From the human T2T-CHM13v2.0 reference genome, Homo sapiens: DNA of 64,000 nt. The notes beneath the pieces are model-generated. The model saw only the letters and a program-made list of their open reading frames with translations. It searched no databases and had not been told where the DNA came from. The position numbers and the translations under genes were made by a program. The stretch lies in NCBI RefSeq assembly GCF_009914755.1, contig NC_060936.1. The stretch is one strand, 5' to 3'. Below, in pieces: positions 6,628-49,730 of the stretch (its first letter is position 1; every line of letters begins with the position of its first letter).

Positions 6628-6986
<359 letters not shown>

Positions 6987-6994
6987 TTACAGTT

Positions 6995-8577
6995 ACTTTT
7001 TGAATTTTATTTTACTTTAAGTTCTGGGATACATGTGCAGAACGTGCAGGTTTGTTACATAGGTATATGCATGCCATGGTGGTTTTTTGCACCTATTGAC
7101 CCATCCTCTCAGTTCCCTCCCCTTACTCCCCATCCCCCAACAGGCCCTGGTGTGTGTGTGTTGTTCCCTCCCTGTGTCCATGTGTTATCATTGTTCAGTT
7201 CCCACCTATGAGGGAGAACCTGCTGTGTTTGATTTTCTGTTCCTCTGTTAGTTTGCAGAGGATGATGGCTTCCAGCTTCATTCATGTCCCTGCAAAGGAC
7301 ATGAACTCATTCCTTTTTATGGCTGTATAGTATTCCATGGAGTATATGTACCACATTTGCTTTATCCAGTCTATCATTAATGGGCGTTTGGGTTGGTTCT
7401 ACGTCTTTGCTATTGTAAATAGTGCTGTAGTAAATATACATGTGCATGTGTCTTTATAGTAGAATTATTTATATTCCTTTTGGTATAAAGCCAGTAATGG
7501 GATTGCTGGGTCAAATGGTATTTCTGGTTCTCAATCCTAGAAGAATTGCCATACTGTCTTCCACAATGGTTGAACTAATTTACATTCCCAGCAACAGTGT
7601 AAAAGTGTTCCTATTTCTTCACAGCCCTGCCAGCATCTATTGTTTCTTGACTTTTTAATAATGGCCATTGTGACTGACATGAGATGGTATCTCACTGTGG
7701 TTTTGAATTGCATTTCTCTAATGATCAGTGATATTGAGCTTTTTTTCATATGTTTGCTGGTTGTGTAAATGTCTTGTTTCAAGAAGTGTCTGTTCATATC
7801 CTTTGCTCACTTTTTGATGGGGTTATTTTTTTCTTGTAAATTTGTTTAAGTTCCTTGTAAATTCTGGCTATTAGACTTTGTCAGTTAGGTAGATTGAAAA
7901 AATTTTCTCTCATTCTGTAGGTTGCCTGTTCATTCTGATGGTAGTTTCTTTTGCTGTGCAGAGGCTGTTTAGTTTAATTGGATCCCATTAGTTAATTTTG
8001 GCTTTTCTTGTAATGGCTTTTGGCATTTTCATCATGAAGTCTTTGTTCATGCCTATGTCCTGAATGGTATTGCCTAGGTTTTCTTCTAGGTTTTTTAAGG
8101 TTTGGGAATTTACATTTAAGCTTTTTGTCCATTTTGAGTTAATTTTTGGATAAGGTTTAAGGACTGGATCCAGTTTCAGTTTTCTGCATGTGGCTAGCCA
8201 GTTTTTCAAGCACCATTTTTGAATTGGAGATCCTTTCCCATTACTCGTTTTTGTCAGGTTTGTCAAAAATCAGATGGTTTTTGTTGTGTGTTGTTATTTC
8301 TGAGCTCTCTGTTCTGCTCCATTAGTCTATATTTCTGTTTTGGTACCAGTACCATGCTGTTTTGGTTACTGTAGCCTTATAGTATAGTTTGAAGTCAGGT
8401 AGTGTGATGCCTCTGTCTTGTTCTTTTTGCTTAGGATTGTCTTGGCTATGCAAGCTCTTTTTTGTTCTATGTGAATTTTGAAGTAGTTTTTTCTAGTTCT
8501 GTGAAGAATGTCAATGGTAGTTCGATGGGAGTAGCATTGAATCTATAAATTACTTTGGGCATTATGGCCATTTTCAT
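6995..8577 (-). mobile_element. 3' 1.6 kb of a full-length L1PA8-like element (5' part at 20623-25443, +)
   Basis: 3'UTR 'cccatcctctcagttccctcccc'. ORF2 peptides at 7537-7797 and 7988-8266. Breaks at 'ggccattttcat'. Confidence 0.9.
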
Positions 8578-8579
8578 AT

Positions 8580-8858
8580 ACATTTTCTTAATCCAGTATA
8601 TCATTGTTGGACATTTGGGTTGGTTCCAAGTCTTTGCTATTGTGAATAATGCTGCAATAAACATACGTGTGCATGTGTCTTTATAGCAGCATGATTTATA
8701 GTCCTTTGGTTATATACCCAGTAATGGGATGGCTGGGTCAAATGGTATTTCCAGTTCTAGATCCCTGAGGAATCGCCACACTGACTTCCACAATGGTTGA
8801 ACTAGTTTACAGTCCCACCAACAGTGTAAAAGTGTTCCTATTTCTCCACATCCTCTCC
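8580..8858 (-). mobile_element. 5' piece (~280 bp of ORF2 C-terminus) of a young 5'-truncated L1PA2/3-like insert
   Basis: Young diagnostics 'gtgaataatg', 'tatagtcctttgg', 'cacactgacttcc'. Differs at many sites from the neighbouring copies at 7350-7630 and 25867-26144. Confidence 0.85.
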
Positions 8859-8913
8859 TAAAACTTAAAGTACAATAAAAAATAAAAATAAAGAAATAAA
8901 AAATAGTATCATA
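8857..8913 (+). mobile_element. Displaced 3' terminus, A-tail and TSD of the L1PA4/5 at 25512-29913
   Basis: cctaaaacttaaagtacaataaaa... 8896-8914 is the exact reverse complement of 29913-29931. Confidence 0.9.
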
Positions 8914-9957
8914 ACTATATATCAATAATAACAATAGAAAATGGAATAAAAAAAGTATTTGTAATAGAAAATACAAAATTCTTAGAAATAAATCTAATAA
9001 AAATATATAAAATATATGGAGAAATGTTGAAATTAATGAACATTATCAACCTAAAAAAATGGAAATCAATGCTATGGTTCTATGTGAACAAATTTAAGGA
9101 TATCAATTTTCTCTCAAACTAATATGTAAAATTGATTCAATTCCCCTAAATTATGGTTGTTTTGTGTAAAACTTAACAAATTAAACCCAAAATTCATGTG
9201 GAGTGTCATAGAGTCAAGAATAGCTAAAATTCAAATTTTAAAGAACAAAGATCCTACGATTTACTCCACCAGATATTAAAAATTATCATAAATATTTAGT
9301 AAGTAAGACCAGAGACAAAGGGAGGAAAGATTGACAACAGGCCAATACGACAGAATAGGTAATACCCAAACAGACCTATGCATAAGTAAACTCAATTTTG
9401 ACAGAGGTATAGGAATCATAAATCAGGAAGAAATAATGGATTTGTCAAAAATATGAAAAATGGTTAACTCCATTCAAAAAATTTTTAATTATTTCACACT
9501 ACATGCAAAAATCAATTCTAGGCAGAGTTCAGACAATATCACAAACAAAATTTTAGAACTTTAAAAAAAAAAACAGAATACCTTTATGACTTAGGGTTAA
9601 GGAAGAATTTCCTAAATAAGACACAGAAAACACAAGCTGTGAAAGGAACTCTAAATAAATAACTAGATTAAAGTTTAAAACCTTTTTTCAATAGAAGACA
9701 CCATAAGAAAAGTTAAAATAAACCAATTTTTAAAAAGCTATTTTGTAGCGCACCTACATTTTAAAGGAACATTATTCAATATAGAGCAAAATAACACTTT
9801 ATAAACTCTTATTTATTAAAAATAAATAAATAGATCACCTAAAAGAGAATGAGCAAAAGATATGCAAAGAAATTTACAGAGGAGAATATTTAAATAACCA
9901 ATAAACCTAGGCAAAGATATACTCCCTCACTAGTAATCAAAGAAATGCAAATGAAAC
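8914..9957 (+). mobile_element. Ancient L1ME-like ORF2 fragment (middle piece)
   Basis: Degenerate ORF2 3' region ending 'aagaaatgcaaatgaaac'. Continues the element at 29914-30850 (-). Confidence 0.75.
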
Positions 9958-10273
9958 CAGAAAGTAAAACCCACAAAATTGTGAGGGCCCTTGATAATTG
10001 ACCCTTCTGGAGTTTCTAATCTCTCAGATTTGTCCACACTGAGCCTCCTACAATTTGTCAATTACTGTTCAGGTTTTCCTACCCCAGTATTGGTTCCTGA
10101 AGAGGTATCTGTTTATGTTAAGTTGTTATTTTGCTATTTGCCTACATCTCCAACTTCAGTGGCACTGATTTCCCTTTTAACCCCACTTCTTTTATGGATT
10201 TTTCAGTTTGTTCAGCATTTTACTTGTTAGGATGGAGTGGCAATTTCCAAGCTGGAAGCAGAAACCAGAAGCC
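9958..10273 (-). mobile_element. First ~315 bp of the L1MC 5'UTR, inverted relative to its body
   Basis: Reverse complement reads 'ggcttctggtttc..cttggaaattgccactccatcctaacaagtaaaatgctgaacaaactgaaaa...ggaggctcagtgtggacaa...gggttttactttctg'. Confidence 0.8.
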
Positions 10274-10809
10274 ATGAGTGCTTTCTTCAGACTACAGAGC
10301 TCATTATCATGGTTCTGGTGCTTTAAAAAGTTGCTTTCAAGGAGTGAACTGTCAGTCTGTCTGAAATTGCTTTTCAAAACCTAAAGTATTATTGGTGAAT
10401 CATTACAAAGAAGTAAAAGCACTATCAATGTAACACTGCAAGAGGAAAAGCCAAAGGAGAAAAGGTCTTATTTGACTAAACAGAAATCAAATGTTTTCTT
10501 TTAGGTCTTAAGACACGTGGACATGCTTTAAACTTTTCTATTTGGTTTGGACTTTGATTTACCCAGGGAAGAACTGGCAAACATATCAAAACCTATTATT
10601 TCCAATTGGCTTCTGCTTATTTATGCAGTAATTATCAAGATTATATGACAATCTGTTTTGATCATTAAGACAATCAGTGGTAACCCAGAAAGCACTGACT
10701 TTTTCAAAAGTAGATTTGTTTGATTTCCTCTCTGAGTGTTGATGTGACCTTGCTCTATAAGTTTCTGATTTCCTTAGATGGATGATCAGAAGCCTAGTTG
10801 AATATATCT

Positions 10810-11350
10810 TTTTTAAAAAATGATGAAATATTTAAACACACAGAAAGTATGCAGAATAACCAAATTATATCATGTGTCTACTTCCCAGATTTGCTTCAAA
10901 CACTTTTAAGGAAATAAAATACTTCAGATACATTTGATTCCTGTGTAAACTTTACAAATCTCACCTTTTTCTTTACTTCTCAGAGATAATCATTAGGTAT
11001 TTGTTGCTTCTGTGCACCTTTATATATTACTAGTACTTATTTGTGGACCCTCTGACAGCATGCATTGGTGCTCATATTTTTGCTATTTTAAACAACATTG
11101 CTAAAAATTTTATGTATTATTCCTATGCACATATGGGAGAATTTTTCTGGGGCGTATGTCTAGGCTGGGATATCAGTGTTGTCTTCAACTCAATTAGAAA
11201 TTGCCAAATTGCTTTTTAAAGTGTTTGTATGAATTTACAACCCAGCCAGAAGTGGATGAGCATTTCTGTTGTTCTACATCTCACATGTTTATTAATCAGA
11301 ATTTTTAATGTTTATTAATCTGATGAGTATGAAACTGCAGTATGTTGCTG
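10810..11350 (-). mobile_element. 3' piece of the L1ME-like element
   Basis: Reverse complement 'tttcatactcatcagatt...gatgtagaacaacagaaatgctcatccacttctggctgggttgtaaatt' is the L1 sequence expected directly after 9957. Confidence 0.75.
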
Positions 11351-14300
11351 TGAGCTCTACCAGGTTCTCACAGTGAATAGTGGAGGTAAATCTCCTCAGG
11401 CTTCCAGCATGGAGAGAAAAAAAGGAACCATCTTGAAATATTTCAAAGCATTCTGTTCTTAACAAAGTCTTCCCTTAGGAGAAATTATTTAATCAGAGCC
11501 TATCCTGCTGAGGTTTTGTCAGAGCCTAACTGATTTCAAAGAAAGAAAATACCCAAGTACAGCTGACTCTTGCCATCATGTACCAACTAAAATGGTGGGT
11601 TACAAACTGAGATGCTCTTGTTAGGTTCACAATCCATAGGCATAGGCTCACTAAAAGGCAGAGACCTAATCACAGGACAATAGAACACTTTCACTCCCCC
11701 CACACCTTACCAGCACATTACTAAAGTGCTACTAACAGCAGTCCATTTTACCTAGTACATTACATATGGTTATCAAGAAAGCAATTACACAGCATATAAA
11801 AAGTAAATATATAATCTGAAGAGATAGAGCAAGTATAGCAAGATAGGCCAGACTCACATATGTATGGATGTTGGAATTATACTGGGAATTTTTTTAAAAC
11901 TATGATTAATATGCTAGGGGTTATAATGGATAAAGTAGATAGCATGCAATAGACTATGGTCAGTATAAGCACAAAGACTGATATTCTAAGAAAGAACCAA
12001 ACAAGGAATACTGAGATTAAAAAATATTGTAAAGGAAATGAAGACTACCTTTAATGGGCTAATTAGTAGCCTACACACAGCTGAGGACACTGAGTTTCAG
12101 GCTATCTCAATAGAAACCTTCAAAACTGAAAAATCAAAGAGGACAAAGATTGAATAAAAACCATAACAGAATATCCAAAATCTGTTTGATAACTATGGAA
12201 GGGGTAACATGCATGTGATGAGAGTACCAGAAGGAGAAAAGAGAAAGGTATGGATAAATATTTGACACAGTAATGACTGAGAATATCCCAAATTAATGTC
12301 AGACACCAAACCACAGATCCAGCATGCTCAGTGAACATCAAGCAAAATTAATGCAAAAAACTGCACCTAGGAATATCATAATCAAATTCTAGAAAATTAA
12401 AGATAAAGAAAAATTCTTGAAAGAAGCCAGAGGGGGGAAAAATCCTACCTCTTACTTATAGAGAAGAAAGGATAAAAATTACATCTAGCTTCTTCTCAGA
12501 AACCATGCTAACAAAAAGAGAGTAGAGTGGAATATTTAAAGTCTTGAGAGGAAAAAAGAAAAACATCAACCTAGAACTTTTTTACTCTGTGAAAATATCA
12601 CTCAGAAGTGAAGGATAAATACTTTCTCAGACAAACAATAATTGAAGGGATTTGTTGCCAGCAGACCAACCTTATAATAAAGGTTAAAAGAAGTTTTTCA
12701 GAGAGAAGGAAAATGATATAGGTCAGAAAGTCAGATCTACAAAAAAAAAGGAGAAGATGACCAAAAAAGGAATAAATGAAAATAAAATATGATCTTTCAT
12801 TTTTCTTATTCTTAATTGATCTAACAAATAATTTTTCCAAAATGAGCGAAAAAATTGCATTTATTATTACAAACGCATAATAGAACAATGTATTCAATTA
12901 TGTATATATGTATGCTTATGAGTAAAATAAATGACAGCAATAAAAAAATGAGAAAAATGAGTCCATTATTTGTTATTATAAGGTATTCACACACCAATGG
13001 ACTCATAAAGTATTATTTAAAAGTGAACTTGGATTAGTTGTAAATATGTATTGCAAACTCTAGGGGAACAACTACAAAATGTTGAAAAATAATTATAACT
13101 GATATGCTAAGCAGGGAAAGAAAGGTCAACAAATAGAAAACAGCAACTAACATGGTAAATATTAAATCAATTACATCAACACTCTGAATGTCAATGATCT
13201 AAATGTATCAATTAAAAAACAGAGTTTGTCAGTGTAGGTAATAACAAAAAACCCAACTCTATATTGTCTACAAGAAACCCATTTTAAATATAGAGACACA
13301 TATATATTAAAAGTAAATGGATAGAGCAAAATATACCAGGCTAACACCAATCAAAAGAAAGGGGGAGTATCTGTATTTATTTCAGAAGAGCAGGCTTCAG
13401 AGCAAAAAAAACCATCAGTGATTAAAAATGGCCATTACATAATGATAAATGGTAAATTCTCCAAGAAGACATACCAATTCCTAACATGTATGCACCTAAC
13501 AACAAAGTGTCAAAATAAGTGAGGTAAAACTAAAAGAACTGCAAAGAAAAATAGATGAATCCACCATCATAGTTGAATACGTCAACACACTTTCATTAGA
13601 AATGAAAAGATTCATGTCCAGGTGCAGTGGCTCATGCCAGCACATTGAATGCCAAGGTGGGTGGGTCACTTGAGGTCAGAAGTTCAAGACCTCCCTGGCC
13701 AACATGGCAAAACTCTGTCTCTACTAAAAAAATACAAAAATTAGCCAGGTGTGGTGGTGGGCGCCTGTAATACCAGCTACTCAGGAAGCTGAGGCAAAAT
13801 AATGCCTTTAACCTGGGAGGTGGAGTTTGTAGTGAGCCAAGATCATGCTACTGCACTGTAGCTTGGATGACAGAGTAAGACTCTGTCAAAAAACAAAATA
13901 AAATAAAGAAGAAGAAAAAAGAAATGAACCAATTCAACAAGCAAAAATCAGTAAGCACATAATTGAACTCAACGATAACATTAATACGTTGGATTTAACA
14001 GTTATCTATAGACTACTTCACCCAACAACAGCAGAATACAGATTCTTCTCATTGTCACATGGAACATTTACCGAGATACACCACATTCTGGTACATAAAA
14101 CAACCTTAACTCATCTCAAAATATAGAAATCATGCAATATCTTCTCTTATACCACAAATAAATTAAGGTAGAAATCAATAACTAACAGATAGGTGAAACA
14201 TCCCAAAATACTTGGATGTTAAACCAAATATTTCTAAATAACACATAGGCCAAAGAAGAAATATCAACAGAAAATTTTAAAATATTTTTAATTAAGTCAA

Positions 14301-17300
14301 AATGCACTTGTTAAAATTTGTGGGATGCAGTGTAAACAGTGCTAACAGGGAAATTTATAGCATTAAATGCATGTGTTAGGAAAAAAGAAAACTATAAAAT
14401 CAATCATCTAATTTTACACCAAAAAAACTAGAAAAAGAAGAGAAAATTAAATCCAAAGGAAATGGAAGAAATCATAAAAATTAGACTAAAAAGTGAACAA
14501 AATTGAAAATAATAAGAGAAAATCAATGAGACTAAAACTTATCCTTTTAAAAGAGCAATAAAATTAATAAGCCTAAGCCAGGTTAATTAAGAAAAGAGAG
14601 AGGACACAAATTACTAATATCAGAAATGAAAGATGAGACATCACTACAGATATCATGGACATTAACAGAATAATAAAGGAATACTGTGAACAACTCTGTG
14701 CCCACAAATTATATAACCTAGTTGAAATGAATCAATTCCTTGAAAGACACAATCTGTCAAAACTCACACGAAAAGAAATAAGCAATCTGATCAGGCCTAT
14801 GTCTACTAAGGAAATTGAATCAATAATTAATAACTGTCCAAAACAGAAAACACAAAGACTAGATGGGCTTACTGTGAATTATTCCAAACATTTAAAAAAG
14901 AAATTGTAACAGCTTTCTACAATCTCTTCCAGAAGACAAAAGCAGAGGAAACACTTTCTAACTCATTCTATGGGGCCAGCATTATCCTAACACCAACACC
15001 AGACAAAGATATTACAAGAAAAGAAAACTACAGACCAATATATCTCATGAACAAAGATGCAAAAATTCTCAACAAAATATTAGTAAATCAAATCCAGCGA
15101 TGTATAAAAGGAATTATACACCATGACTAAATGGGATTTATGCCAGGTATGCAAGGCTGATTCAACATTCAAAAATAAATTAATCTAATCCATCACACCA
15201 ACAGGGTAAAGAAGAAAAGTCATATGATTATATCAGTAGATGCAGAAGAATCATTTGATAAAATATAACACCCTTTAATGATTAAAAAAAACCAACTAAA
15301 CTAGGAATAGCGGCAAACTTCCTCAACTTGATAAAGAATATTTACCAAAAAACCTGCAGGAAAATTTATACTTAAAAATGAAAACTAGAGCCTTTGTAAC
15401 TAAGATCAGAAACAAGGCAAAAAATGTCACCTGTCACCACTCCTTTTCAACATTGTGGTGGAAGTCCTAGCTAATGCAATAAAACAAGAAAAGAAATAAA
15501 ATATACATTAATTGAAAATGAAAATGTAACTGTCATTGTTGACAGATGACATGATTGTCTAATTAGAAAATTCAAAAGAATTGACTAAAAATGCCCTCCT
15601 GCAACTAATAAACAATTATAGCAAGGTTGCAGGATACAAGGTTAATATATGTCAATCGCTTTCCTATAAACCAGCAATGAACAAGTGGAATTTGAATTTA
15701 AGAACACATTACCATTTACATTAGCACCAAAATAATAAAATACTTAGGTAAACATCTAACAAAATATGTTCAAGGTCTATATGAGTAAAACTACATGATT
15801 TTCTCTAGTTGTTCCAGCACCATTTATTGAAAAAACTATCAAAAGAAGAACTAAATAAATGAAGAGATACTTCATGTTCATGGATAGAAAAACTCAATAT
15901 TGTCAAGATGTCAGTTTTTCTCAACTTAGTCTATAGACTCAATGCAACTCCAATCAAAGTCTTAGCAACTTACGTTGTGGAAACTGTTTCCATACAAACT
16001 GATTCTAAAGTTTATATAGAGAAGCTAAAGACACAAAATAGCCAGCACACTATTGAAGGACAAGAACAAAGTTAGAATACTGATACTACCCAACTTCAAG
16101 ACTTACTATAAAATTACTATAATCAGCACAGTGTGGTATTGGTGAAAGAACAGCCAAATAGTTCAATAGAACAGAATAGAGGAGCCAGAAATAATCAACT
16201 GATCTTTGACAAAGGAGAAAAGGCAATACAGCAGAGAAAAGATACTTTTTCAACAAATGGTGCTGAAACAACTAGACATCCAGATGTTAAAAAAAAAATC
16301 TGGACATAGTCCTTACATCTTCAAAAAATCAACCAAAATATATTAAAGACCTACATGTAAAACACAAAACTGTAAAATTCCTGGAATATAACATAGAAAA
16401 GAATCTAGATGCCCATGGATTTGGCAGTGACTTTTTAAATACAGCAACAAAGGGACCAAAGGGACAATCCATGAAAGAAAGAATTCATAAGCTAGATGTA
16501 ATTAAAATTAAAAATTTCTGCTCTGCAAAAAACAAAATAAAAAGACAAGCCACAGACTGAGAAAAACTATTTGTAAAAGACATATCTGATGAAGACATGA
16601 GTTATTCAAGGCATATAAATAACTCTTAAAACACAACAATAAGGAAAAGAACAACCTAATTAAAAAATGGGCCAAAGACTTTAACAAGTTTCCCACCAAA
16701 GAAGATATAATAATGACAAATAAGCATATGTAAAGAAGCTCTACATTATATATAATCAGGGAAATACAAATTAGAACAATAACAAGATAACAATGTCTAT
16801 CTATTAGAATGGCCAAAATCCAGAACACTGACAACACCAAATGCTGGAGAAGATATAAAGCAACATGAACTCTTATTTATTTCTGGTCATAATGCAGAAT
16901 GGTATGGTCAATTTAGAAGACAGATTAGTGGTTTCTTACAAAACTAAACCTACTTCTACCGTACAACCCAGCAATCCCACTCCTTGGTATTTACCCAAAG
17001 GAATTGAAAACTTACAGCCATACAAAACCTGCACATGGATGTTTATAGAAGCTTTAATTATTTATATTTGCCAAAACTTAGAAACAATCATGGTATCTTT
17101 CAGTAGGTGAGAGGATAAATAAACTAAGTGAAAGAAGACAATATGAAAAGGATACATACTGCAAAATTGCAAGTGTAAGACATTCTGGAAAAAGCAACAC
17201 TATACAGTAAATTGATCCATGGTTGCCAGAGTTTAAGGAGGACAGCAGGATGAAGAGATGAAGCACGGAAAATTGTTAGGGCAGTGAAACTGCTCTGTGT

Positions 17301-17460
17301 GACACTATAAAGGTGAGAATGTCATTACACATTTGTCCAACTCCATTGAATATACAATGCCAAGAGTGAACCTAATGTAAACTATGGACTTTGGTTGATA
17401 TATGTTGTTTATAAAGAGATATATGCTAATCAACATATTAGCATATATATATATATATTA
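11351..17460 (+). mobile_element. Near full-length L1MC (L1MC1-3-like), decayed
   Basis: 5'UTR remainder, ORF1 and ORF2 remnants (peptide 14655-14909). 3' end 'gagtgaacctaatgtaaactatggactttgg'. Confidence 0.85.
13617..13920 (+). mobile_element. AluS (Sx/Sz-like)
   Basis: Dimer with A-tail. TSD agaaatgaaaagattca / agaaatgaaccaattca. Confidence 0.9.
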
Positions 17461-17559
17461 AAACAAGAAATGGCACTTCTTGAGACAGAGGTGTTTCTTG
17501 GTGAAGACCAGTTTCATACCAAGACGTGCTATTGCATGTGACCCATTAATTTTTCAACT

Positions 17560-18155
17560 CACGGAGATCCACTGTGTCATATCACATTTTCATTCTTCCT
17601 CATGCCCTTATATCCTGACATCTCTCCTTACTCAGATCAAATTCAACAGTCATTATTATCATTCTATCAAATAGACTCTCAACAGCCTCATGTTTATATC
17701 ACTTCATCATATAATTAGAAAATCACCAACCCCAGTAAAACTCAATTTTTCATTTCTACGAAAAGTTGAATATACATATGCCTGCATCAGATGTATGTAA
17801 ATATCGCTGAAGAAAAACTCACATTTGTGCTAGCTGATTTGAATTTAAAATCATCCCCTCTGAATTTCAGTGTGCCTGCCATCCAAAATTTTTTATTCCA
17901 TTCACTCTCTTACTCTTTAAGACAACAATTTTTTGTCCCCTACTCTATTTTCTAAGGCCTCAATTACTCTTCTTAGTCTCACCTTATAATCTTGCTCATA
18001 ACCATCTTTCATAGTATTTACTTCGCACATTTATTTTGTTTACTGTCTGTATCACTAGAAACTTGGGGATTTGGGAGAGGGGTTTCTGCTGCATTCTCAG
18101 TGCCAAGAAGAATGTCTGACCTATAACATTAAACTCTAAAAATTGTATGTATGAT
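17560..18155 (+). mobile_element. L2 fragments
   Basis: Degenerate L2 3' end 'ctgcattctcagtgccaagaagaatgtctgac...' and a pyrimidine-rich body. Confidence 0.5.
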
Positions 18156-18539
18156 ATGTGTAAGAGATGCTATTTTGTAAATAGCAGTCTGCAGTATTAA
18201 AAGACTTTATTAGCTGAATAAATGATGAATTTACCATAATACAAAGTCTACTTCTTATCTTTGAAGACTCTAAAAAGTAATATTCTTTTTATGCTAAGTA
18301 ATCAACCTCCAGAAAACTGGCTTACTTTATCAAGTATATACAGGAATGAGTAACTAGTGTATCAACTTATTTGTTTATATTAAAAGGGAAGCAACAACAT
18401 TTTGTTTATGCCTGAAACTGGCATTTACGGAATAGCACCTCTTTCCCCACATGCAAAGCAACATCCACATGCAAATTATTATCTACATTGTTTGTGTTAA
18501 ATATATTTCTAGGATCCTTGGCCATAACCAATTCTGTGT

Positions 18540-19550
18540 ATGTGTAGAACAAGACTTCTAGAGACCAGCAGAAAAGAGGTCTTGGAAAGTTAAGAGATAA
18601 GCGGAGATTTCAGAGCATGTACATAGTTCCTCTCATACAGTTCTGGGGAGATATTAGAGTTAAAACCCAGTCATAGTTCAGACCCAGCCAGAATGAAGGA
18701 GTCCTTTATTAACATAAGGGACAATTCATTGAGACCTCTGAAATGTCACGCCCTAGGAGTACAGATATATCTCCAAGCATAAGGGCAATACTGAAATAAA
18801 TCCACCCTAATAAAGACTAAAACCAAAACATCAGGATCAAGGTGAACCACTGGTAATTTAATTGACTACCGAACAACGTTTAACACTCTTTTGAGAAAGA
18901 TAATATAAGCCAGGGCTCTGCAACATATTTGCAATATCCAGTATAAGTCAAAATTTACCAAACTTGTAATGAAGCAGAAGAAGAGTTAGTAGAAGTAGAC
19001 GTAAATAGTAAGCAGACAATGACTTCAAAATAACTATGGTTCAAAAATGATTAAGAAAAGTAGTGTAAAAGATGGTCAAAATGCATAAAAATGGTCCTTT
19101 TAAAAGAGAATTAAATTTTATAAGAAAGAATAAAGTGGATTTTCTAGAACCAAAAACTGTAATAATTAAGAATTCAGTAGATGGATTTAACAATAGGTCT
19201 AAGACAAAAAAAGAAAGAATGGCAAAACTCAAATTGAGATCAATAGACTATATCATTTTTGAATACAAAAAAGTTCAGAACAAAATCTAGGGTAGAAGAG
19301 ATATGTGGTATTGGTCAAAAGCTCTCATATAAGGGGAATTAAGAGAATAAAACAGAAACAATATTTAAAGGTTGAGAATTTTTTAAATATGATGAAAGAC
19401 ATGAATGCCAACATTCAAAAAGCTCAATAGAATAAGAAAATCCACACCTTGGCATATTTATTCTTACTGATAAAAATCAATAATAAAGACACAATCTTAA
19501 AAGCATTCAGAGACAAAAATTATATCAGGTAAAGGGAAAAAGCAGTAACA
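18540..19550 (+). mobile_element. Ancient L1M 5'UTR/ORF1 (5' part of the element at 1-2244)
   Basis: ORF1-like peptide 19072-19290 (IKNSVDGFNNR). Ends 'aatcttaaaagcattcagagac'. Confidence 0.65.
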
Positions 19551-20622
19551 GTCAAATTACAGCGTTATTCAAATAGACAGGCATAAACATAAGGCATCAA
19601 AAACTATTAAAAACCAAGGAGAAATAACACCAAAAAAAAAAAAAAAAAGAATGCAATAATCTCCCAGTAGCTGACCTAAAAGAAACAGAGATATACAAGC
19701 TGCCTGAAAAAGAATTCAAAGTAATTATTCTTAGGAGGCTCAGAGAACTTCAAGAAAATAGACAAAAAAAAAAAAAAAAGATATCAGGAAAACAATAAGT
19801 GACCAAAATGAAAAACAATAGACAGATTAAAATTATTTTAAAAAAGGAAATTGTGGAGCTGAAAAATATATTACATGAAATAAAAATGCAATAGAAAGAA
19901 TCAATAGCAGAATTGATTAAGCAGAAAAATGTGTGAACTTGAAAACATCTTATTTTAAAATTCACAGAGGAGAAAAAAGAAAAAAGAATGAAAAGTAATA
20001 AAAATGCTTATGAGATTTATGGACATCATGAAAACAAATATTTGAGTTATGGGAGTTAAAGGAAAGAGGTAATGGGGTAGAAAGCTTATTTTAAAAAAAA
20101 ATAAATAATAAGAGAACACTTTCCAAATCTTGGGAAAAATATGAATATTCAGATACAGAAAACTCAATGGTCTCCAATCAGATTCAGTTCAAACAGGACT
20201 ACACCAAGAAATATAATCAAACTGTCAAAAATTATAGTCAGAGAATCCTGAAAGCAGACTAGGAAAAGAATTAAGTCACATGTAAAGAAATTCTTATAAG
20301 GCTAGCAACAGACTTCTTAGCAGATATCTTACAGGTCAGAAAAATGTGGGATGATATATTCTAAGTGCTGAAGGAAAAAGTGGCAAACAGGAATACTGTA
20401 GTTGGCAAAGCTGTCATTAAGAAATGAAAATGAGATGAAGACTTTCCCAGACAAACAAAAGCTGAGGAAGTACATGGCCATCAGACTTGTCTTATAAAAA
20501 ATGTTAAAGAAGTCTCTTCAAACTAAAAGAAAAGAAAGCTAATTAGTAAAATGAAAACATGAAAGTATAAAAATCACTGGTAAAAGTATATGCACAATAA
20601 AATTTTTAAAACTCTAATACTG
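19551..20622 (+). mobile_element. L1MA ORF1 region (5' part of the element at 2245-6994)
   Basis: 'gactttcccagacaaacaaaagctgagg...gaaagtataaaaatcactggtaaaag'. Continues colinearly into the reverse complement of 6981 and leftward. Confidence 0.8.
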
Positions 20623-23600
20623 AGAAAGTGTGGGGCCAAGACAGTTGAATGGAAGCAGTGGCGATTGGAGGCTCCCATCAGAAAGAGCCATAAAAGCATG
20701 TGAATCCTGCACCAGCAACCAAAGTATTCAGGTTTTCTCATCAGAACTGAATAGGCGGCTGGCGTAATCCATGGAGAGGAAGAAAGAGCAGTGTGGTGCG
20801 GTGGCCCACTTGAAAGCCACATGGGGCAGGGGAACCCTCACCCCCCAGCCAAGGGAGGTAGTGACTGAGCATGCTACCCAGTCGAGGAAACTGTGCTTTT
20901 TCCACGGAACTGTGCAACCTGCGGATTGGAAGATCCCACTCATGAACCCATGCCATTGGGGCCTAGGGTCCCAATCCTACAGCCACGCAGATTCTCAACA
21001 GTCTCTCAGCTAGAATCTGCTTAAACCTGCTGAGTTCCCAGAGTTGCTGGGGGTGACCAGCACCACAGTCGCAGCTTTCTGCTGTCTAAGCCTTTTAAGC
21101 TCTCTGGGGGAGGAGCAGCAGCCAGCACTGGCACTGATAACTGCCTAACACACTAAGCTCCCTGGGCAGGGAATAGGCAGCAGCCATTTCTATAGCTCCA
21201 GGCCATGATTTTCCCCTGCTGGAACCAGGGAGGCTGGATAGCTTGGTCTCAAGAGGTGTCACCCACAGACAGCCCAACACACCAGCTGTGGTAGACTGTG
21301 GCCAGAGCACCTCTTCAGGCCTGACCCTGATCCATCCTTGCTCACTGGGTGGGACCTCCCTGCAGGAACTCCAACAACTCCAGCCAGAGGCTCAGGGACA
21401 CAACCTGGACCTCCCTGGGCCTGAGCTCCTAGGGGAAGGAGTGGCCACAGTCTCTGCGAATTAGGCAACTTCACCTTTCCTCCTGGTAGTTCTGAGGAAT
21501 ACAGGCAGCCCAGATGAGTGGGTTTCCCCCTAGTGAAGCACACCCCTTCCACCAAGGGACAGTCAAAGTGCTTCATTAAATGGGTCCTGTTCCCCCTGCC
21601 ACCAAACTGGGTGAAATCTTCCAACAGGGGTTGTCAGACTCCCTATAAAGGAGCAACCCTACTGGCATCAGGTTGGTGTTCCTTGAGGACAGAGATCCTA
21701 GAAGAAGGAGCAGGCACCCATCTTTGTTATTCTCCAGCCTCCTTGAGTAACATCTCCAGGCAGAGGAGCAAACCAGTTGAATAGGGCTTGAAGTGAACCC
21801 CCAGAAAACTGCAGCAGCCCTACAGAAGAGGGACCTGACCATTGAAAGAAAAGCAAACAAACAAACAGAAAGCAACAAAAACAGTATCAACAACAACAAC
21901 AAAAAGTCCCCACAAAAACCCTATCCAAGCGTCAGCAGCCTCAAAGATTGAAACTAGACAAACTCATGAAGATGGGAAAGAATGAACGAAAAAAACTGAA
22001 AATTCAAAAAGCCAGACTGCCTCTTCCTCCAAATGATCACAACACCTCTCCAGCAAGGGTACCGAACTGGATGGCAGATGAGTTGGACAAATTGACAGAA
22101 GTACACTTCATAAGATGGGTAATAAAAAACTCCACTGAGCTAAAGAAGCATATTCCAACCTAATGCAAAGAAGTTAAGAACCTTGATAAAAGGTAAGAGG
22201 ACCTGCTAACTAGAATAACCAGTTTAGAGAGGAATATAAATGAACTGAGGGAGCTGAAAAACACAGCATGTGAACTTCGTGAAGCATACACAAGTATCAA
22301 TAGCTAAATCAACCAAGTGGAAAAAAGGATATCAGAGTTTGAAGACCAAGTTGCTGAAATTAGGCATGCAAACGAGATCAGAGGAAAAAGAACGAAAATG
22401 AATGAACAAAGCTTCCGAGAAATACGGGACTATGTAAAAAGACCAAAGCTATGATTGATTGGAGTGCCTGAAGGAGACAGGAAGAATGTAAACACGCTGG
22501 AAAGCACACATCAGGATATTATCCAGGAGAACTTCCCCAACCTAGCAACGTGCAAGTTCAGGAAATAGAGAGAACACCATTAAGATACTCCACGAGAAGA
22601 TCAACCCCAACACAAATAATCATCAAATTCTCCAAGGTTGAAAGGAAGGAAAAATGTTAAGGGCAGCCAGAGAGAAAGGCCAGGTCACCTACCAAGTGAA
22701 GCCCATAAATCTAACAGTGGACCTCTCAGCACAAACCCTACAAGCCAGAAGAGATTGGGGCCAATATTCAACATTTGTAAAGAAAAGAATTTTCAACCCA
22801 GAATTTTATATCCAGCCAAACTAAGCTTCATAAGCAAAGGGGAAATAAAATCCTTTCCAGACAAGCAAATGCTGAGGAATTTCATCACCACCAGGCCTGC
22901 CTTGCAAGAGCTCCTGAAGGAAGCACTAAATATGGAAAGAAAAAAGCGGTACCAGCCACTGCAAAAACACACCAAAACATAAAGACAAATGACACTATGG
23001 AGAAACTGCATTGACTAGTGTGCAAAATCATCAGACAGCATCATGATGACAGGATCAAATTCACACATAAGAATATTAACCTTAAATGTAAATGGGCTAA
23101 ATGCCCACCAATTAACAGACTGGCAAATTGGATAAAGAGTCAAGACCCATCAGTGTGCTGTATTCAGGAGACATATCTCATGTGCAAAGACACACATAGG
23201 ATCAAAATAAAGGGATGGGGGGAAATTTACCAAGAAAATGGAAAGCAAGAAAAAAGCAGGGGTTGCAATCCTAGTCTCTGACAAAACAGACTTTCAACCA
23301 ACAAAGGTCAAAAAAAGGCAAAGAAGGGCATTACATAATGGTAAAGGGATCAATTCAACAGGAAGAGCTAACTATCCTAAATATATATGCACCCAATGCA
23401 GGAGCACGCAGATTCATAAAGCAAGTTCTTACAGACCCACAAAGAGACGTAGACTCCCACACCATAATAGTGGGGAACATTAACATCCCATTGTCAATAT
23501 TAGACAGATCAATGAGACAGAAAATTAACAAAGATATTCAAGACCTGAACTTAGCACTAGATCAAGTGGACCTAATAGACATCTACAGAACTCTCCACCC

Positions 23601-25443
23601 CAAATCAACAGAATATGCATTCTTCTCAGTGCCACATGGCATTTATTCTAAAATCGACCACATAATTGGAAGTAAAACACTCCTCAGCAAATGCAAAAGA
23701 ACTGAAATCATATAAACAGTCTCTCAGACCACAGTACAATCAAATTAGAATTCAGGATTAAGAAACTCACTCAAACCACACAGTTTTATGGAAATTGAAT
23801 AACCTGCTCCTGAATGACTCCTGGGCAAATAATGAAATTAAGGCAGAAATCAAAAAGTTCTTTGAAACCAATGAGAGCAAAGAGACAAAGTACCAGAATC
23901 ACTGGGACACAGCTAAAGCAGTGTCAAGAGGGAAATTTATAGTACTAAATGCCCACATCAGAAAGCTAGAAAGATCTCATATTGACAACCTAACATCACA
24001 ATTAAAAGAGCTAGAGAAGCAAGAGCAAACTAATTCAAAAGTCAGGAGAAGACAAGCAATACTAAGATCAGAGAGGAACTGAAGGAGATAGAGACATGAA
24101 AAACCTTCAAAAAAAATCAATGAATCCAAGAGGTGGTTTTTTGAAAAAATTAACAAAATAGACCATTAGCTAGACTAATAAAGAAGAAAAGGGAGAAGAA
24201 TCAAATAGATACAATAAAAATGATAAAGGGGATATCACCACTGACCCCACAGAAACACAAACTATCATCAGAGAAAACTATAAACACCTTTGTGCAAATA
24301 AACTAGAAAATCTAGAAGAAATAGAAAAATTCCTGGACACATACCCTTCCAAGACTAAACCAGGAAGAAGTCAAATCCCTGAATAGACCAGTAACAGGTT
24401 TTGAAATTAAGACAGTAATTAATAGCCTACCAACCAAAAAAAGCCCATGACCAGACAGATTCACAGCTGAATTCTACCAGAGGTACAAAGAGGAGCTGGT
24501 ACTATTCCCTCTGAAACTATTCCAAACAATTGAAAAGGAGAGATTCCTCCATAACTTATTTTATGAAGCCAGCTTTATCCTGATACCAAAACCTGGCAAA
24601 GATACAACTAAAGAAGAAAACTTCAGGCCAATATCCCTGTTGAACATCAATGCAAAAATTTTCAGTTAAATACTGGCAAACCGAATACAGCAGCACATCA
24701 AAAAACTTACCCACCATGATCAAGTCAGCTTCATCCCTGGGCTGGTTCAACATATGTAAATCAATAAACATAATCCATCACATAAACAGAGCCAAAGACA
24801 AAAACTACATGATTATCTCAATAGATTTAGGAAAGGTCTTTGATAAAATTCAACATCCCTTCATGTTAAAAACTCCGAATAAACTAGGTATTGATGGAAC
24901 ATATCTCAAAATAGTAAGAGCTATTTATGACAAACCCACAGTCAATATCACATTGAATGGGCAAAATCTGGAAGCAGTCCTTTTGAAAACTGGTACAAGA
25001 CAAGGATGCCCTCTCTCATTACCCCTATTCAACATAGTACTGGAATTCTGGCCAGTGCAATCGAGGCAAGAGAAAGAAATAAAGAGTATTCAAATAGGAA
25101 GAGAGGAATTCAAATTGTCTCTGTTTGCAGACAATATGATTCTATATTTAGAAAACCCCATCATCTTAGCCAAAAAACTTTTTAAGCTAATAAACAACTT
25201 CAGCAAAGTCTCAGGATACAAAATCAACGTGCAGAAATCACAAGCATTCCTTTACACCAACAATAGATGAGCAAAGAGCCAAATCATGAATGAACTCACA
25301 TTCACAATTGCTACAAAGAGAATAAAATACCTAGGAATACAGCTAACAAGGGATGTGAAGGACATCTTCAAGGAGAACAACAAACCACAGCTCAAGGAAA
25401 TAAGAGAGGACACAAACACATGAAAAAACATTCCATCCTCATG
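20623..25443 (+). mobile_element. L1PA8-like element: 5'UTR, ORF1 and most of ORF2 (disrupted)
   Basis: GC-rich 5'UTR. ORF1 peptide 22638-22982, endonuclease peptide 23338-23715, RT peptide 24650-25270 ([19 protein letters not shown]). Stops at 'ttccatcctcatg'. Confidence 0.93.
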
Positions 25444-25449
25444 TACATT

Positions 25450-25511
25450 ACATGTACCCTAAAACTTAAAGTATAATAATAATAATAATAATAATAATAC
25501 TAAAAGAAAAA
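25450..25511 (+). mobile_element. 3' terminus and (TAA)n/A tail of the young L1 whose 5' piece is at 8580-8858
   Basis: acatgtaccctaaaacttaaagtataataat... followed by TSD aagttttagg. Confidence 0.8.
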
Positions 25512-29913
<4,402 letters not shown>

Positions 29914-30850
29914 TATGATACTATTTTTTATATGTTAATAATTTATCCAGGAATTTTGCTAAATCCTCATATAAGTTTAATAGGTTTTGTGAACATTCTG
30001 TTGGATACAAAATCCAATAGAATGATATCATCAGCAAAGAAGGATAATATTGTCTTCTTTCTAATTATGCCTTTTGAAAAATAGCTTAATATTGAAGTCA
30101 CAATAGGAGGCTCTTATCTTGTTCTGATATAGTGCAAATGATTCCGAAGTTTCATCACTTTAGATGAAGGAAGAAGGAAGTTGGAAAACATTCTGTTTAA
30201 TGCTTATTTTGCTCTTATTTTGCAAATTGCTGCTTTTCTTTTTTTTAACTTCCCACACAACACTGACTAGCAAATTGCTTATATCATGAAGTCTTTTGTT
30301 TTCTGTGCTTTTATTATGTAAAAGTTGCTTTTATTATGAATGTTTACCTAAATGGATATTTTCCTTCATCTACTGCATCTCTTGAGAGATCGTATGTCTT
30401 ATCGCCTTCATTTTACTAATACAGTGAATAATATTAGACATTCTGATGTTTGGTTATCTAAGAATTCCTGGGATAAAACCTACTTACTGAAACTATTCTT
30501 TTGGGCACTGGTGATTTAGTTTCTTAGTATTTAATTTAATATCTTTGCATTTATGTTCACAAGTGAGTTGGTCCATAACTCCCTTTTCTTGGACTGTATT
30601 TGCCTGGCTTTGGCATGAAGTCAATTGTAAATTCATGAAATGAATTAGGTAGCTTTTCCAATTTTTCTATTATTTGAAACAAGTTTATGACACGGGGATT
30701 ATCCATTTATTGAAAGTTTGGTTAAAGTCATCTCTAAAGGTATCTGGGTCTGGTCTTTAGGATAAGGTGACTTTCAATTTCTTTAATTTTTTGGGGGGGT
30801 TTATTAGATTTTCTGTGTCTTCTTAAGTCATTTTGGGAAAACTATCCTTT
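29914..30850 (-). mobile_element. Ancient L1ME-like ORF2 fragment (5' piece)
   Basis: Degenerate antisense RT region 'gatatcatcagcaaa', 'tcctgggataaaacctactt', 'tctgggtctggt'. Confidence 0.7.
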
Positions 30851-47555: not shown

Positions 47556-47944
47556 TTCAAGAAAAAGACCCAAATGCAACTTTCAGCAAACAAATGCTGA
47601 GAGAATTCATTGCTATGGAGAATGTTAAAGGACGTTCTTTAGGAAGTAAGATTATTATATAGACATTTGGATCTAAACATGGAAAAGAATAGTGCCAGAA
47701 ACAGTAAATATATGGGTAAAAACATTTTTTACCCTTTTTAATTTCTTTAAAGAATATTGACTATTTAAAGTAAAAGTAATAACAATTTATCATAGAATTA
47801 ACAGCACATATGGAGGTAAAATGCATGACAACAATAGCATAAAGACCAGGAGGGGGAAGGGAAAGTGTAGTATTGTCAGATTCTTATACTATGTGTAAAT
47901 GAGCATAATATTTGAAAGCAGATTTTGATAAGTTAAAGATGTAT

Positions 47945-49730
<1,786 letters not shown>

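What the first reader, a model, noticed from the sequence alone, without database searches (positions are those of the whole stretch)
25444..25529. Tail-to-tail L1 insertion made a ~630 bp near-palindrome that the inversion destroyed
Reconstruction: a young 5'-truncated L1 inserted antisense into the last bases of the L1PA4/5 3'UTR. Its TSD aagttttagg is now at 25512-25521 and, inverted, at 8857-8866. Compared with the L1PA3 at 48007-48341, ~335 nt of the insert are missing between its two surviving pieces. It was therefore ~640 nt plus tail, facing a highly similar L1 across a ~44-bp spacer. Only an 18-bp inverted repeat survives (25450-25467 vs 25512-25529). Closely spaced inverted repeats are known to be break-prone. 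Inference: hairpin or cruciform breakage, or faulty resolution during integration, triggered the deletion and inversion. That would be a full insertion, palindrome, rearrangement history readable from one haplotype.
Basis: partly seen in the sequence, partly recalled or inferred. Interest (0 to 1): 0.8.

Follow-up and report, generated by a model that had tools for sequence, protein, structure and literature searches.

The report
Nested L1 insert split by inversion
A young L1 fragment landed tail-to-tail in the end of an older L1 and was then cut in two by a 16.9-kb inversion; the history is real and readable, but whether the short-lived palindrome caused the break cannot be told from this one genome.

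Summary
The 18-nt inverted repeat (25450-25467 / 25512-25529, 44-nt spacer) and the 10-nt duplication AAGTTTTAGG (25512-25521; inverted at 8857-8866) are exact.

- An old L1 ("L1-X") is split. Positions 7019-8578 (antisense) and 22650-25443 (sense) are colinear, with 18 nt lost.
- The host L1 ("L1-Y", 25512-~29912) has its own 19-nt target-site duplication split and inverted (29913-31 vs 8896-8914).
- The two young pieces are colinear, with about 325-335 nt missing.

The inverted segment is 8579-25443 (16,865 bp). The young piece is 98.9% identical to its best genomic relatives. L1-Y reaches only 95-96% to its own best relatives.

The inferred palindrome had arms of about 632 nt, about 90-93% identical by proxy, with a 44-nt spacer. 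It is plausible, but its causal role is not shown:
- The centre of the repeat is intact and the loss is off-centre in one arm.
- The junctions look like plain end joining.
- A genome-wide count of close tail-to-tail L1 ends had no power.

A serious rival is a single L1-integration-coupled inversion, a class recently described in cancer and cell models. Ape orthologues could not be examined. Interest is moderate.

The parts
25450..25467 (+). Left arm of the surviving 18-nt inverted repeat. These are the last body bases of the young L1 (sense), just before its terminal AAAGTATAATAA and tail.
   Evidence: Exact reverse complement of 25512-25529. Aligns to the 3' end of the L1 copy at 47944-48006.
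25444..25449 (+). TACATT at junction J2. Either 6 nt of filler, or a remnant of the young L1 (5 of 6 match) followed by a 4-nt loss.
   Evidence: Alignment. The resulting 24-mer is found only at this locus in the whole genome.
25468..25511 (+). 44-nt spacer: the young L1's terminal AAAGTATAATAA, a (TAA)n-type tail, and CTAAAAGAAAAAA.
   Evidence: Read directly. Spacer length.
25512..25521 (+). Right copy of the young L1's target-site duplication, AAGTTTTAGG. Also the first bases of L1-Y as it now lies.
8857..8866 (-). Left copy of the same duplication, now inverted. Two C at 8857-8858 can belong either to it or to the L1, a 2-nt microhomology at the 5' junction.
   Evidence: Compared with the L1 copy at 48610-48625.
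8580..8858 (-). 5' piece of the young L1 (279 nt), now antisense. It runs from the 5' truncation point (8858) to the inversion break (8580).
   Evidence: 96.8% identical to 48342-48620 and 92.8% to L1-Y 25866-26144. 98.9% identical to the best genomic relatives.
8579..25443 (.). The inverted segment, 16,865 bp. Junction J1 is at 8578|8579-8580, with one orphan T at 8579. Junction J2 is at 25443|25444.
7019..8578 (-). 3' part of old L1-X (antisense), outside the inversion.
   Evidence: Colinear with L1-Y 25512-27100, 82% identity over 1594 nt.
22650..25443 (+). 5' part of old L1-X, now in sense orientation inside the inversion.
   Evidence: Aligns on the minus strand to L1-Y 27119-29913, 84.6% over 2826 nt. 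Only L1-Y 27101-27118 (18 nt) has no counterpart.
25512..29912 (-). L1-Y, the older host L1 (antisense). As it lies it lacks its last 12 nt and its tail.
   Evidence: Its best genomic relatives are only 95-96% identical.
8867..8895 (+). L1-Y's missing terminal 12 nt (AAAGTACAATAA) and short A-rich tail, carried away by the inversion.
   Evidence: Read directly. Bracketed by the young L1's duplication on one side and L1-Y's own duplication on the other.
8896..8914 (-). Left copy of L1-Y's own target-site duplication (17-19 nt), inverted.
   Evidence: Exact reverse complement of 29913-29931. Each occurs once in the window, and 0 of 500 shuffles of the two 151-nt boxes gave a match this long (maximum 15).
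29913..29931 (+). Right copy of L1-Y's target-site duplication, at L1-Y's 5' end.

Best explanation
The locus records a sequence of insertions followed by one non-homologous inversion.

(1) Shown: two old L1s lay in the same orientation about 16.6 kb apart. L1-X is the older. L1-Y has a 17-19-nt target-site duplication.

(2) Shown: a young 5'-truncated L1 of about 644 nt plus tail integrated by ordinary target-primed reverse transcription. The nick was at ACTT/AAAG on L1-Y's sense strand, 12 nt before L1-Y's A-tail. It left a 10-nt duplication and a 2-nt microhomology at its 5' junction.

(3) Inferred: this made a tail-to-tail inverted repeat with arms of about 632 nt. The arms are 92.8% identical in the part that survives and 87-93% by proxy in the lost part. 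The spacer is 44 nt.

(4) Shown as outcome, inferred as mechanism: two double-strand breaks, one in the young L1 and one in L1-X, were rejoined the wrong way round by end joining. This inverted 16,865 bp and lost 18 nt of L1-X and about 325-335 nt of the young L1. J1 is a blunt join with one extra T. J2 has 6 nt of filler, or 2-nt microhomology with a 4-nt loss.

I take insertion and inversion to be separate events. What made the break in the young L1 is open. The inverted repeat may have raised the odds (about 0.25 of the total), or the break may be unrelated (about 0.40).
For: - L1-X is split with colinear halves and an 18-nt gap.
- L1-Y's 19-nt duplication is split and inverted, 29913-31 vs 8896-8914, with 0 of 500 shuffles matching.
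- The young L1 has a duplication, a tail, an endonuclease-like site and a normal sense-oriented 5' junction. This shows that both ends of the insert were attached at one target site in the normal way.
- The breakpoints lie at non-homologous L1 positions, with 0-2 nt microhomology and 1-6 nt of filler. This is typical of end joining.
- Inversions flanked by deletions are a recognised germline class. A survey of 1,019 genomes lists 159 with one adjacent deletion and 12 with two flanking deletions (PMC12350158, passages).
- Ages are ordered as the model needs. The young piece is 98.9% identical to its best relatives, with 1-2 private changes in 279 nt. L1-Y is 95-96%. L1-X is 82-85% identical to L1-Y.
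Against: - No intermediate allele (intact insert, not inverted) has been seen, because no other genome could be examined.
- A random break would fall inside a roughly 640-nt insert about 1% of the time within this 64-kb window. That coincidence asks for a causal link, either the palindrome or the integration itself.
- The geometry is identical under the single-event rival, so the sequence alone cannot separate them.
Confidence: 0.62

Rival explanations
1. Single event: an L1-integration-coupled inversion.

L1 endonuclease cut both strands at the target in L1-Y's 3' end. The right-hand end primed reverse transcription from the poly(A).

Before the insert was made double-stranded, the chromosome ends were held together only by cDNA. 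At that stage the intermediate broke, or two separate cDNAs were made, as in twin priming. In that case the second cDNA was primed from the 3'-OH at 8578.

The four ends, two at the target and two at an unrelated break in L1-X 16.6 kb away, were then joined crosswise.

The 335-nt 'deletion' would then be a gap between two cDNAs, or trimmed single-stranded cDNA. No stable palindrome would ever have existed.

A variant keeps a role for the repeat. The nascent antisense cDNA lies on the same strand as L1-Y's sense sequence. It could snap back onto it after end resection and derail resolution.
For: - L1 sequence sits exactly at both inversion junctions and nowhere else.
- The 10-nt duplication is preserved on the two now-separated target ends.
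- At J1 an antisense L1 strand follows a genomic 3' end (8578). That is the polarity reverse transcription would give.
- Precedent: L1-induced genomic inversions that keep the duplication, cDNA pieces of one RNA at two separate junctions, and self-annealing of resected ends (bioRxiv 10.1101/2024.12.14.628481, passages).
- Precedent: L1 cDNA intermediates join distal breaks with 2-nt microhomology or 8-9-nt insertions, including one inversion (PMC13526784, passages).
- In ordinary twin-primed inserts, only 132 of 287 have the two cDNAs within 20 bp of each other (PMC12016303, passages). A gap of hundreds of nt is therefore not odd.
Against: - The 5' piece is joined to the duplication in the normal sense orientation, with normal microhomology. 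A complete ordinary insert is the simplest reading.
- The primer end at 8578 has no complementarity to the L1 at the start of the piece.
- The L1-X break has no TTTT/A-like site on either strand (read).
- It needs an independent break 16.6 kb away at the same moment.
- All precedents are somatic or experimental. My searches found no described germline, fixed example.
Confidence: 0.28
2. The insert existed as a stable near-palindrome of about 630 nt. Hairpin or cruciform formation made it break, and repair of that break against a second break in L1-X gave the deletion and inversion. This is a sub-case of the best explanation: two steps, with the break caused by the repeat.
For: - The reconstructed repeat has long arms (about 632 nt), a short spacer (44 nt) and about 90-93% identity.
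- One of the two inversion breaks falls inside one arm.
- The event removed nearly all of the repeat, leaving 18 nt, as a stabilising rearrangement would.
- Inverted Alu pairs with spacers up to about 100 bp are unstable in a yeast model and are depleted in the human genome. This is as reported in PMC3215922 (passages), which cites Lobachev et al. 2000; I could not read that paper.
Against: - The spacer and 18 nt of both arms are untouched, whereas centre-break processing removes the centre.
- The loss is confined to one arm and starts 18-26 nt from the loop.
- There is no hairpin-type inverted duplication.
- Arm identity near 91% is lower than the near-identical repeats for which strong fragility is known (figure recalled, not read).
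- The genome-wide count of close tail-to-tail L1 ends shows neither depletion nor excess. Observed counts were 1, 0, 2 and 1 per 31-position spacing bin, against about 1.0 expected from 10,096 x 10,206 motif copies. It therefore gives no support.
Confidence: 0.25
3. The two young pieces are separate insertions, or 8580-8895 is one twin-primed L1 (inverted 5' piece, then sense 3' end, then A-tail) unrelated to 25444-25511.
For: Read locally, 8580-8895 has exactly the look of a twin-primed insert: an antisense piece running from high to low L1 coordinates, then a sense 3' end and an A-rich tail.
Against: - The '3' end plus tail' at 8857-8895 is followed by the inverted copy of L1-Y's own duplication (8896-8914 vs 29913-29931).
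- L1-Y lacks exactly those 12 nt and tail at 25512.
- No matching duplication lies left of 8580, where L1-X is broken instead.
- The two young pieces share one 10-nt duplication.
Confidence: 0.02
4. The inversion arose by homologous recombination between inverted L1 copies (young L1 against L1-X).
For: The young L1 and L1-X were in inverted orientation, and L1-X contains a homologous stretch (7353-7626, 85.8% identical to 8580-8853).
Against: The breaks are at non-homologous L1 positions. L1-X is broken at the equivalent of L1-Y 27100/27119. The young L1 is broken at the equivalent of about 25530 and 25866. That is more than 1.2 kb apart on the L1 ruler. No chimeric L1 was formed.
Confidence: 0.01

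Closest known systems
Non-homologous (end-joining) germline inversions with deletions at the breakpoints
   Same: Balanced inversion, breaks at unrelated positions, small losses at both ends (18 and about 330 nt), 0-2 nt microhomology and 1-6 nt filler. The class is listed in PMC12350158: 159 inversions with one adjacent deletion and 12 with two flanking deletions.
   Different: Here one break lies inside a young nested L1 that had just created an inverted repeat, so a causal link is possible.
L1-induced genomic inversions and rearrangements at integration sites (bioRxiv 10.1101/2024.12.14.628481; PMC13526784)
   Same: Poly(A) and endonuclease-type site at one breakpoint. A target-site-duplication-like overlap between the two target ends, now on different junctions. 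L1 sequence at the junctions, with short microhomology or filler.
   Different: Those cases are somatic or experimental, and usually carry the L1 at one junction. Here both junctions carry L1, the 5' junction is a normal one, and the event is in a germline reference genome.
Instability of closely spaced inverted repeats (inverted Alu pairs; palindrome centre-break)
   Same: Inferred long arms with a 44-nt spacer, within the spacer range called hairpin-prone in PMC3215922. The rearrangement abolished the repeat.
   Different: The centre is intact, the loss is one-sided and off-centre, arm identity is only about 91%, and the outcome is an inversion with a distant partner rather than a local deletion.
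Twin priming (Ostertag and Kazazian 2001; cited through)
   Same: The present-day arrangement at 8580-8895 looks like an inverted 5' piece next to a sense 3' end with a tail and an internal gap.
   Different: In the reconstructed insert the 5' piece is joined to the duplication in sense orientation. The '3' end' at 8857-8895 belongs to L1-Y.
Retrotransposon recombination-mediated inversion (PMC2603318)
   Same: Inversion with both breaks in L1 elements of opposite orientation.
   Different: There is no homologous exchange, since the break positions differ by more than 1.2 kb on the L1. The locus is not in that paper's chr12 list.

Membership tests
Endonuclease-dependent L1 insertion (target-primed reverse transcription) | Target-site duplication flanking the insert | tested here: met
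   AAGTTTTAGG at 25512-25521 and, inverted, at 8857-8866.
Endonuclease-dependent L1 insertion (target-primed reverse transcription) | A-rich tail at the 3' end, next to the duplication | tested here: met
   25468-25511: terminal bases, (TAA)n and an A-run.
Endonuclease-dependent L1 insertion (target-primed reverse transcription) | TT/AA-type nick site on the primed strand | tested here: met
   The bottom strand reads ...AAAACTT/AAAGTA at the reconstructed target. The consensus motif itself is from PMC13526784 and PMC12016303.
Twin-primed L1 insertion | The inverted 5' segment abuts the upstream duplication in antisense orientation, highest L1 coordinate first | tested here: not met
   The duplication is followed by the 5' piece in sense orientation, lowest coordinate first (reverse complement of 8857-8866 then 8856...8580).
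Inversion by homologous recombination between inverted repeats | Breakpoints at corresponding positions of two inverted homologous copies | tested here: not met
   The break positions differ by more than 1.2 kb on the L1-Y ruler.
Palindrome or inverted-repeat-triggered rearrangement | Long, similar arms with a short spacer present before the event | tested here: inconclusive
   Reconstructed only: arms of about 632 nt, 92.8% identity in the surviving 279 nt, 87-93% by proxy in the lost part, 44-nt spacer. No genome with the intact state was seen.
Palindrome or inverted-repeat-triggered rearrangement | Break or loss at the centre (or symmetric about it), or hairpin-type inverted duplication | tested here: not met
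   The spacer and 18 nt of each arm are intact. The loss is in one arm only, and there is no inverted duplication.
L1-integration-coupled inversion | Reverse-transcription hallmarks at one breakpoint, and a duplication-like overlap between the two target ends, now on different junctions | tested here: met
   The same is expected, however, if a finished insert is later broken.
L1-integration-coupled inversion | No allele or species with the finished insert and no inversion | not testable with these tools
   No ape or other human assembly is held. There is no paralogue in this genome. Supplements searched gave nothing.

The most novel reading that the evidence does not exclude
This is a germline, apparently fixed example of an L1-integration-coupled inversion. 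While the young L1 was being copied into the 3' end of an oppositely oriented L1, its nascent single-stranded cDNA could fold back on the adjacent L1-Y sequence of the same strand, which is about 91% complementary across a 44-nt loop. The stalled, one-strand bridge broke, and the ends were joined to a break 16.6 kb away. The inverted repeat would then have acted on the integration intermediate, not as a resident palindrome. The locus would be a natural counterpart of the L1-induced inversions so far seen only in tumours and L1-overexpressing cells.
Probability: 0.2. Interest if true: 0.65.

Novelty: new member of a known kind. Interest (0 to 1): 0.36.

Why it matters
The locus is a clean worked example. 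Nested repeats and their target-site duplications let a four-step history be read from a single haplotype: two old L1s, a nested insert, then an inversion. It also shows a trap, because 8580-8895 looks like a twin-primed L1 but is not one.

If comparison with apes shows no intermediate allele, it would be evidence that L1 integration can invert tens of kilobases in the germline, not only in tumours. If an intermediate exists and is stable, it sets a limit on how fragile an L1 inverted repeat of about 630 nt and about 91% identity, with a 44-nt spacer, really is. There is no gene in the window, so no functional consequence is expected.

Tried and rejected

(2) Genome-wide test for depletion of close tail-to-tail L1 3' ends. 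Exact 14-mers on both sides gave:
- spacing 30-60: 1 locus (this one);
- spacing 60-90: 0;
- spacing 90-120: 2;
- spacing 300-330: 1.

The 14-mer occurs 10,096 times forward and 10,206 times reverse, which predicts about 1.0 pair per bin at random. The test has no power either way. A fifth bin failed with 'bad gap' and was dropped. With 10-mers and spacing 20-50, 2 loci matched, against 1 for the reversed control pattern. I did not measure the arm lengths of the other loci.

(3) Templated-insertion search around both junctions. Only 7-9-mers that are part of the L1 repeat itself, or low-complexity words, recurred. Nothing was usable.

(4) The GTGC-less variant at J2 could have been a source-lineage marker. 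It is unique in the genome, so it is junction-specific.

(5) Search for a paralogous copy keeping the ancestral order found none.

(6) A longer L1 ruler was fetched to find L1-X's 5' end and its duplication. It turned out to be a short L1 among Alus, so L1-X's own duplication was not determined.

(7) Literature and supplements were searched for a listed inversion at this place:
- PMC12350158; files cut when stored.
- PMC2603318; chr12 rows present, none at the estimated position.
- PMC6748972; 12 of 18 files searched, no chr12.
- PMC12058530; supplement unreadable.
- PMC12350169; files cut.

None listed it. My GRCh38, hg19 and hg18 coordinates were estimated from a recalled gene position, so these blanks are weak. 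PMC9563103 and PMC313988 are not held.

(8) Subfamily naming: no repeat library was available. Six of the seven closest relatives carry GAG at a 3'UTR trinucleotide; the seventh (L006) had no match to the motif pattern. I recall this trinucleotide as distinguishing older L1PA from the human-specific Ta lineage. The marker lies in the part missing here, so it types the relatives, not the piece.

Full report
WHAT IS THERE

At 25444-25529 the plus strand reads as follows: the last bases of an L1 in sense orientation, its terminal AAAGTATAATAA, a (TAA)n/A-rich tail, and then an L1 3' end in antisense orientation.

The 18-nt inverted repeat 25450-25467 / 25512-25529 is exact, with 44 nt between the arms, and does not extend. 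As single-stranded DNA it folds at -17.5 kcal/mol, z = -6.9, and 0 of 200 shuffles fold as well. AAGTTTTAGG at 25512-25521 recurs inverted at 8857-8866.

THE INVERSION IS REAL: THREE INDEPENDENT LINES

(i) An old L1, here called L1-X, is split.
- Using the neighbouring L1 (L1-Y, 25512-~29912, antisense) as a ruler, 7019-8578 aligns on the plus strand to L1-Y 25512-27100 (82%, 1594 nt).
- 22650-25443 aligns on the minus strand to L1-Y 27119-29913 (84.6%, 2826 nt).
- The two halves are colinear, of like divergence and of opposite orientation. Only 18 nt (L1-Y 27101-27118) are missing.

(ii) L1-Y as it lies starts at AAGTTTTAGG and lacks its last 12 nt and tail.
- Those bases (AAAGTACAATAA plus an A-rich run) lie at 8867-8895 in the opposite orientation.
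- They are followed at 8896-8914 by the exact reverse complement of the 19 nt that abut L1-Y's 5' end at 29913-29931.
- Each copy is unique in the window. None of 500 shuffles of the two 151-nt boxes gave a match this long (maximum 15, mean 8.8).
- This is L1-Y's own target-site duplication, split and inverted.

(iii) The young L1's two pieces share one 10-nt duplication and are colinear on the L1 copy at 47926-48998. Piece 8580-8858 corresponds to 48342-48620 (96.8%), and 25450-25513 corresponds to 48006-47944.

The inverted segment is 8579-25443, or 16,865 bp.

THE INSERT

In the reconstructed order, the duplication is followed by the 5' piece in sense orientation, starting at its truncation point. 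Two C can belong to either side.

The 3' end carries a tail and the second copy of the duplication. The nick site on the primed strand reads ACTT/AAAG. These are the hallmarks of an ordinary 5'-truncated endonuclease-dependent insertion.

On the 47926 copy the insert measures about 632 nt up to the duplication, plus 12 nt and the tail. 335 nt (48007-48341) are missing. The figure is about 325 if TACATT at 25444-25449 is an L1 remnant followed by a 4-nt loss. That 24-mer is unique in the genome, so it is a junction feature and not a lineage variant.

AGES

The window's genome could be searched.
- The 361-nt query 8540-8900 gave 39 non-self matches, all confined to the 279-nt young L1 piece (query 40/41 to 318-320), at 97-99% identity (40 scored of 1786 candidates). 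The best have 3 mismatches in 279 nt.
- Against 7 close relatives (two of them duplicates of one another), the piece differs from all 7 at one column and from 6 of 7 at another. That is about 0.4-0.7% private change.
- The same 279-nt stretch of L1-Y finds nothing better than 95-96% (39 non-self matches).
- The young piece is 7.2% from L1-Y and 14.2% from L1-X.
- Six of the seven relatives carry GAG at a 3'UTR trinucleotide; the seventh (L006) had no match to the motif pattern. I recall GAG as marking L1PA elements older than the human-specific Ta lineage. That marker lies in the part missing here.

The order old L1-X, middle-aged L1-Y, young insert is secure. The names L1PA3 and L1PA4/5 are not verified. 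On divergence alone the insert is roughly the age of the African-ape splits, with wide error.

THE PALINDROME

Before the inversion, the sense insert faced antisense L1-Y across 44 nt.
- Arm identity is 92.8% in the 279 nt that survive.
- By proxy, six close relatives are 87-93% identical to L1-Y over the lost part and 90-93% over the whole 633-nt arm.

'Highly similar' means about 91%.

DID THE PALINDROME CAUSE THE BREAK?

Nothing in the sequence says so.
- The centre (spacer and 18 nt of each arm) is intact.
- The loss is in one arm only, from 18-26 nt to about 354 nt from the loop.
- There is no inverted duplication of the kind hairpin-capped ends give.
- The partner break is 16.9 kb away, at an L1 position that is not homologous.
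- J1 is ...CATA | T | ACATTTTC..., a blunt join with one orphan base.
- J2 is ...CTCATG | TACATT | ACATGTACCC..., with 6 nt of filler, or 2-nt microhomology with a 4-nt loss.

Both junctions carry a 7-mer twice within 19 nt: CATTTTC at 8569-8575 and 8581-8587, and CATGTAC at 25440-25446 and 25451-25457. A search for templated copies found only words that belong to the L1 repeat or are of low complexity.

Inverted Alu pairs with spacers up to about 100 bp are reported as unstable in yeast and depleted in the human genome (PMC3215922, passages). The primary paper was not held.

My own genome-wide count of close tail-to-tail L1 ends had no power. Counts were 1, 0, 2 and 1 per 31-position bin, against about 1.0 expected from 10,096 and 10,206 motif copies in 3.117 Gb.

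THE RIVAL: ONE INTEGRATION-COUPLED EVENT

Recent work describes L1-induced rearrangements in which the two ends of the cut target part company:
- genomic inversions that keep the duplication-like overlap;
- cDNA pieces of one RNA at two separate junctions, described as a snapshot of twin priming;
- self-annealing of resected ends (bioRxiv 10.1101/2024.12.14.628481, passages);
- L1 cDNA intermediates joined to distal breaks, with 2-nt microhomology or 8-9-nt insertions, including one inversion (PMC13526784, passages).

The present anatomy fits this. L1 sequence lies at both junctions and nowhere else. The duplication is preserved on separated ends. At J1 an antisense L1 strand follows a genomic 3' end.

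But any later break inside a finished insert gives the same geometry. The normal sense-oriented 5' junction, the lack of primer complementarity at 8578 and the absence of a TTTT/A-type site at the L1-X break all speak for a finished insert. A hybrid is possible: the nascent cDNA lies on the same strand as L1-Y's complementary sequence and could snap back during integration.

REJECTED READINGS

- Read locally, 8580-8895 looks like a twin-primed L1. The L1-Y duplication at 8896-8914 shows that the '3' end and tail' there belong to L1-Y.
- Homologous recombination between inverted L1s is excluded by the break positions.
- There is no paralogous copy of the locus.

WHAT COULD NOT BE DONE

No ape or other human assembly is held. 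Supplements of five papers gave no listing of this inversion. However, files were cut or unreadable, and my coordinates in older assemblies were estimated from a recalled gene position. Whether the inversion is fixed, polymorphic or human-specific is therefore unknown.

VERDICT

The reconstruction is confirmed and strengthened. The causal claim is untested and not favoured by the anatomy.

My odds:
- separate insertion then end-joining inversion: about 0.62, of which a break caused by the repeat is about 0.25 of the total;
- single integration-coupled event: about 0.28;
- other: under 0.1.

This is a new example of known kinds of event. It is of moderate interest, and would be higher if the ape comparison shows no intermediate.

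Noticed in passing
window 8580-8914: This stretch mimics a twin-primed L1: an antisense piece, then a sense 3' end and an A-tail. It is really a chimera of the young L1's 5' piece and L1-Y's displaced terminus. An automatic annotator could miscall it.
   Followed up: yes
window 29913-29931 and 8896-8914: L1-Y's own 17-19-nt target-site duplication, perfectly conserved, now 21 kb apart and inverted.
   Followed up: yes
window 8569-8587 and 25440-25457: Each inversion junction carries a 7-mer twice, separated by 4-5 AT-rich bases: CATTTTC..CATTTTC and CATGTAC..CATGTAC. This could be a trace of microhomology search or slippage during joining, or chance in T-rich L1 sequence.
   Followed up: partly
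window ~6641-6964: An Alu-like element with its own A-rich tail sits directly left of L1-X's 3' end (7019), probably inserted in or next to L1-X's tail. L1-X's own duplication was not found.
   Followed up: no
L003 (G000:C11:50532798-50536076) and L004 (G000:C11:50297190-50300468): Two chr11 loci about 236 kb apart carry the same L1 with an identical tail, in opposite orientation. This looks like an inverted segmental duplication.
   Followed up: no
L010 (G000:C2:2348574-2348721), L011 (G000:C23:68833244-68833378), L012 (G000:C5:63488705-63489042), L016 (G000:C23:31180241-31180308): These are the only other close tail-to-tail L1 3'-end pairs found in the genome with exact motifs. Their arm lengths and identities were not measured. 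They would be natural controls for how long such inverted repeats survive.
   Followed up: no
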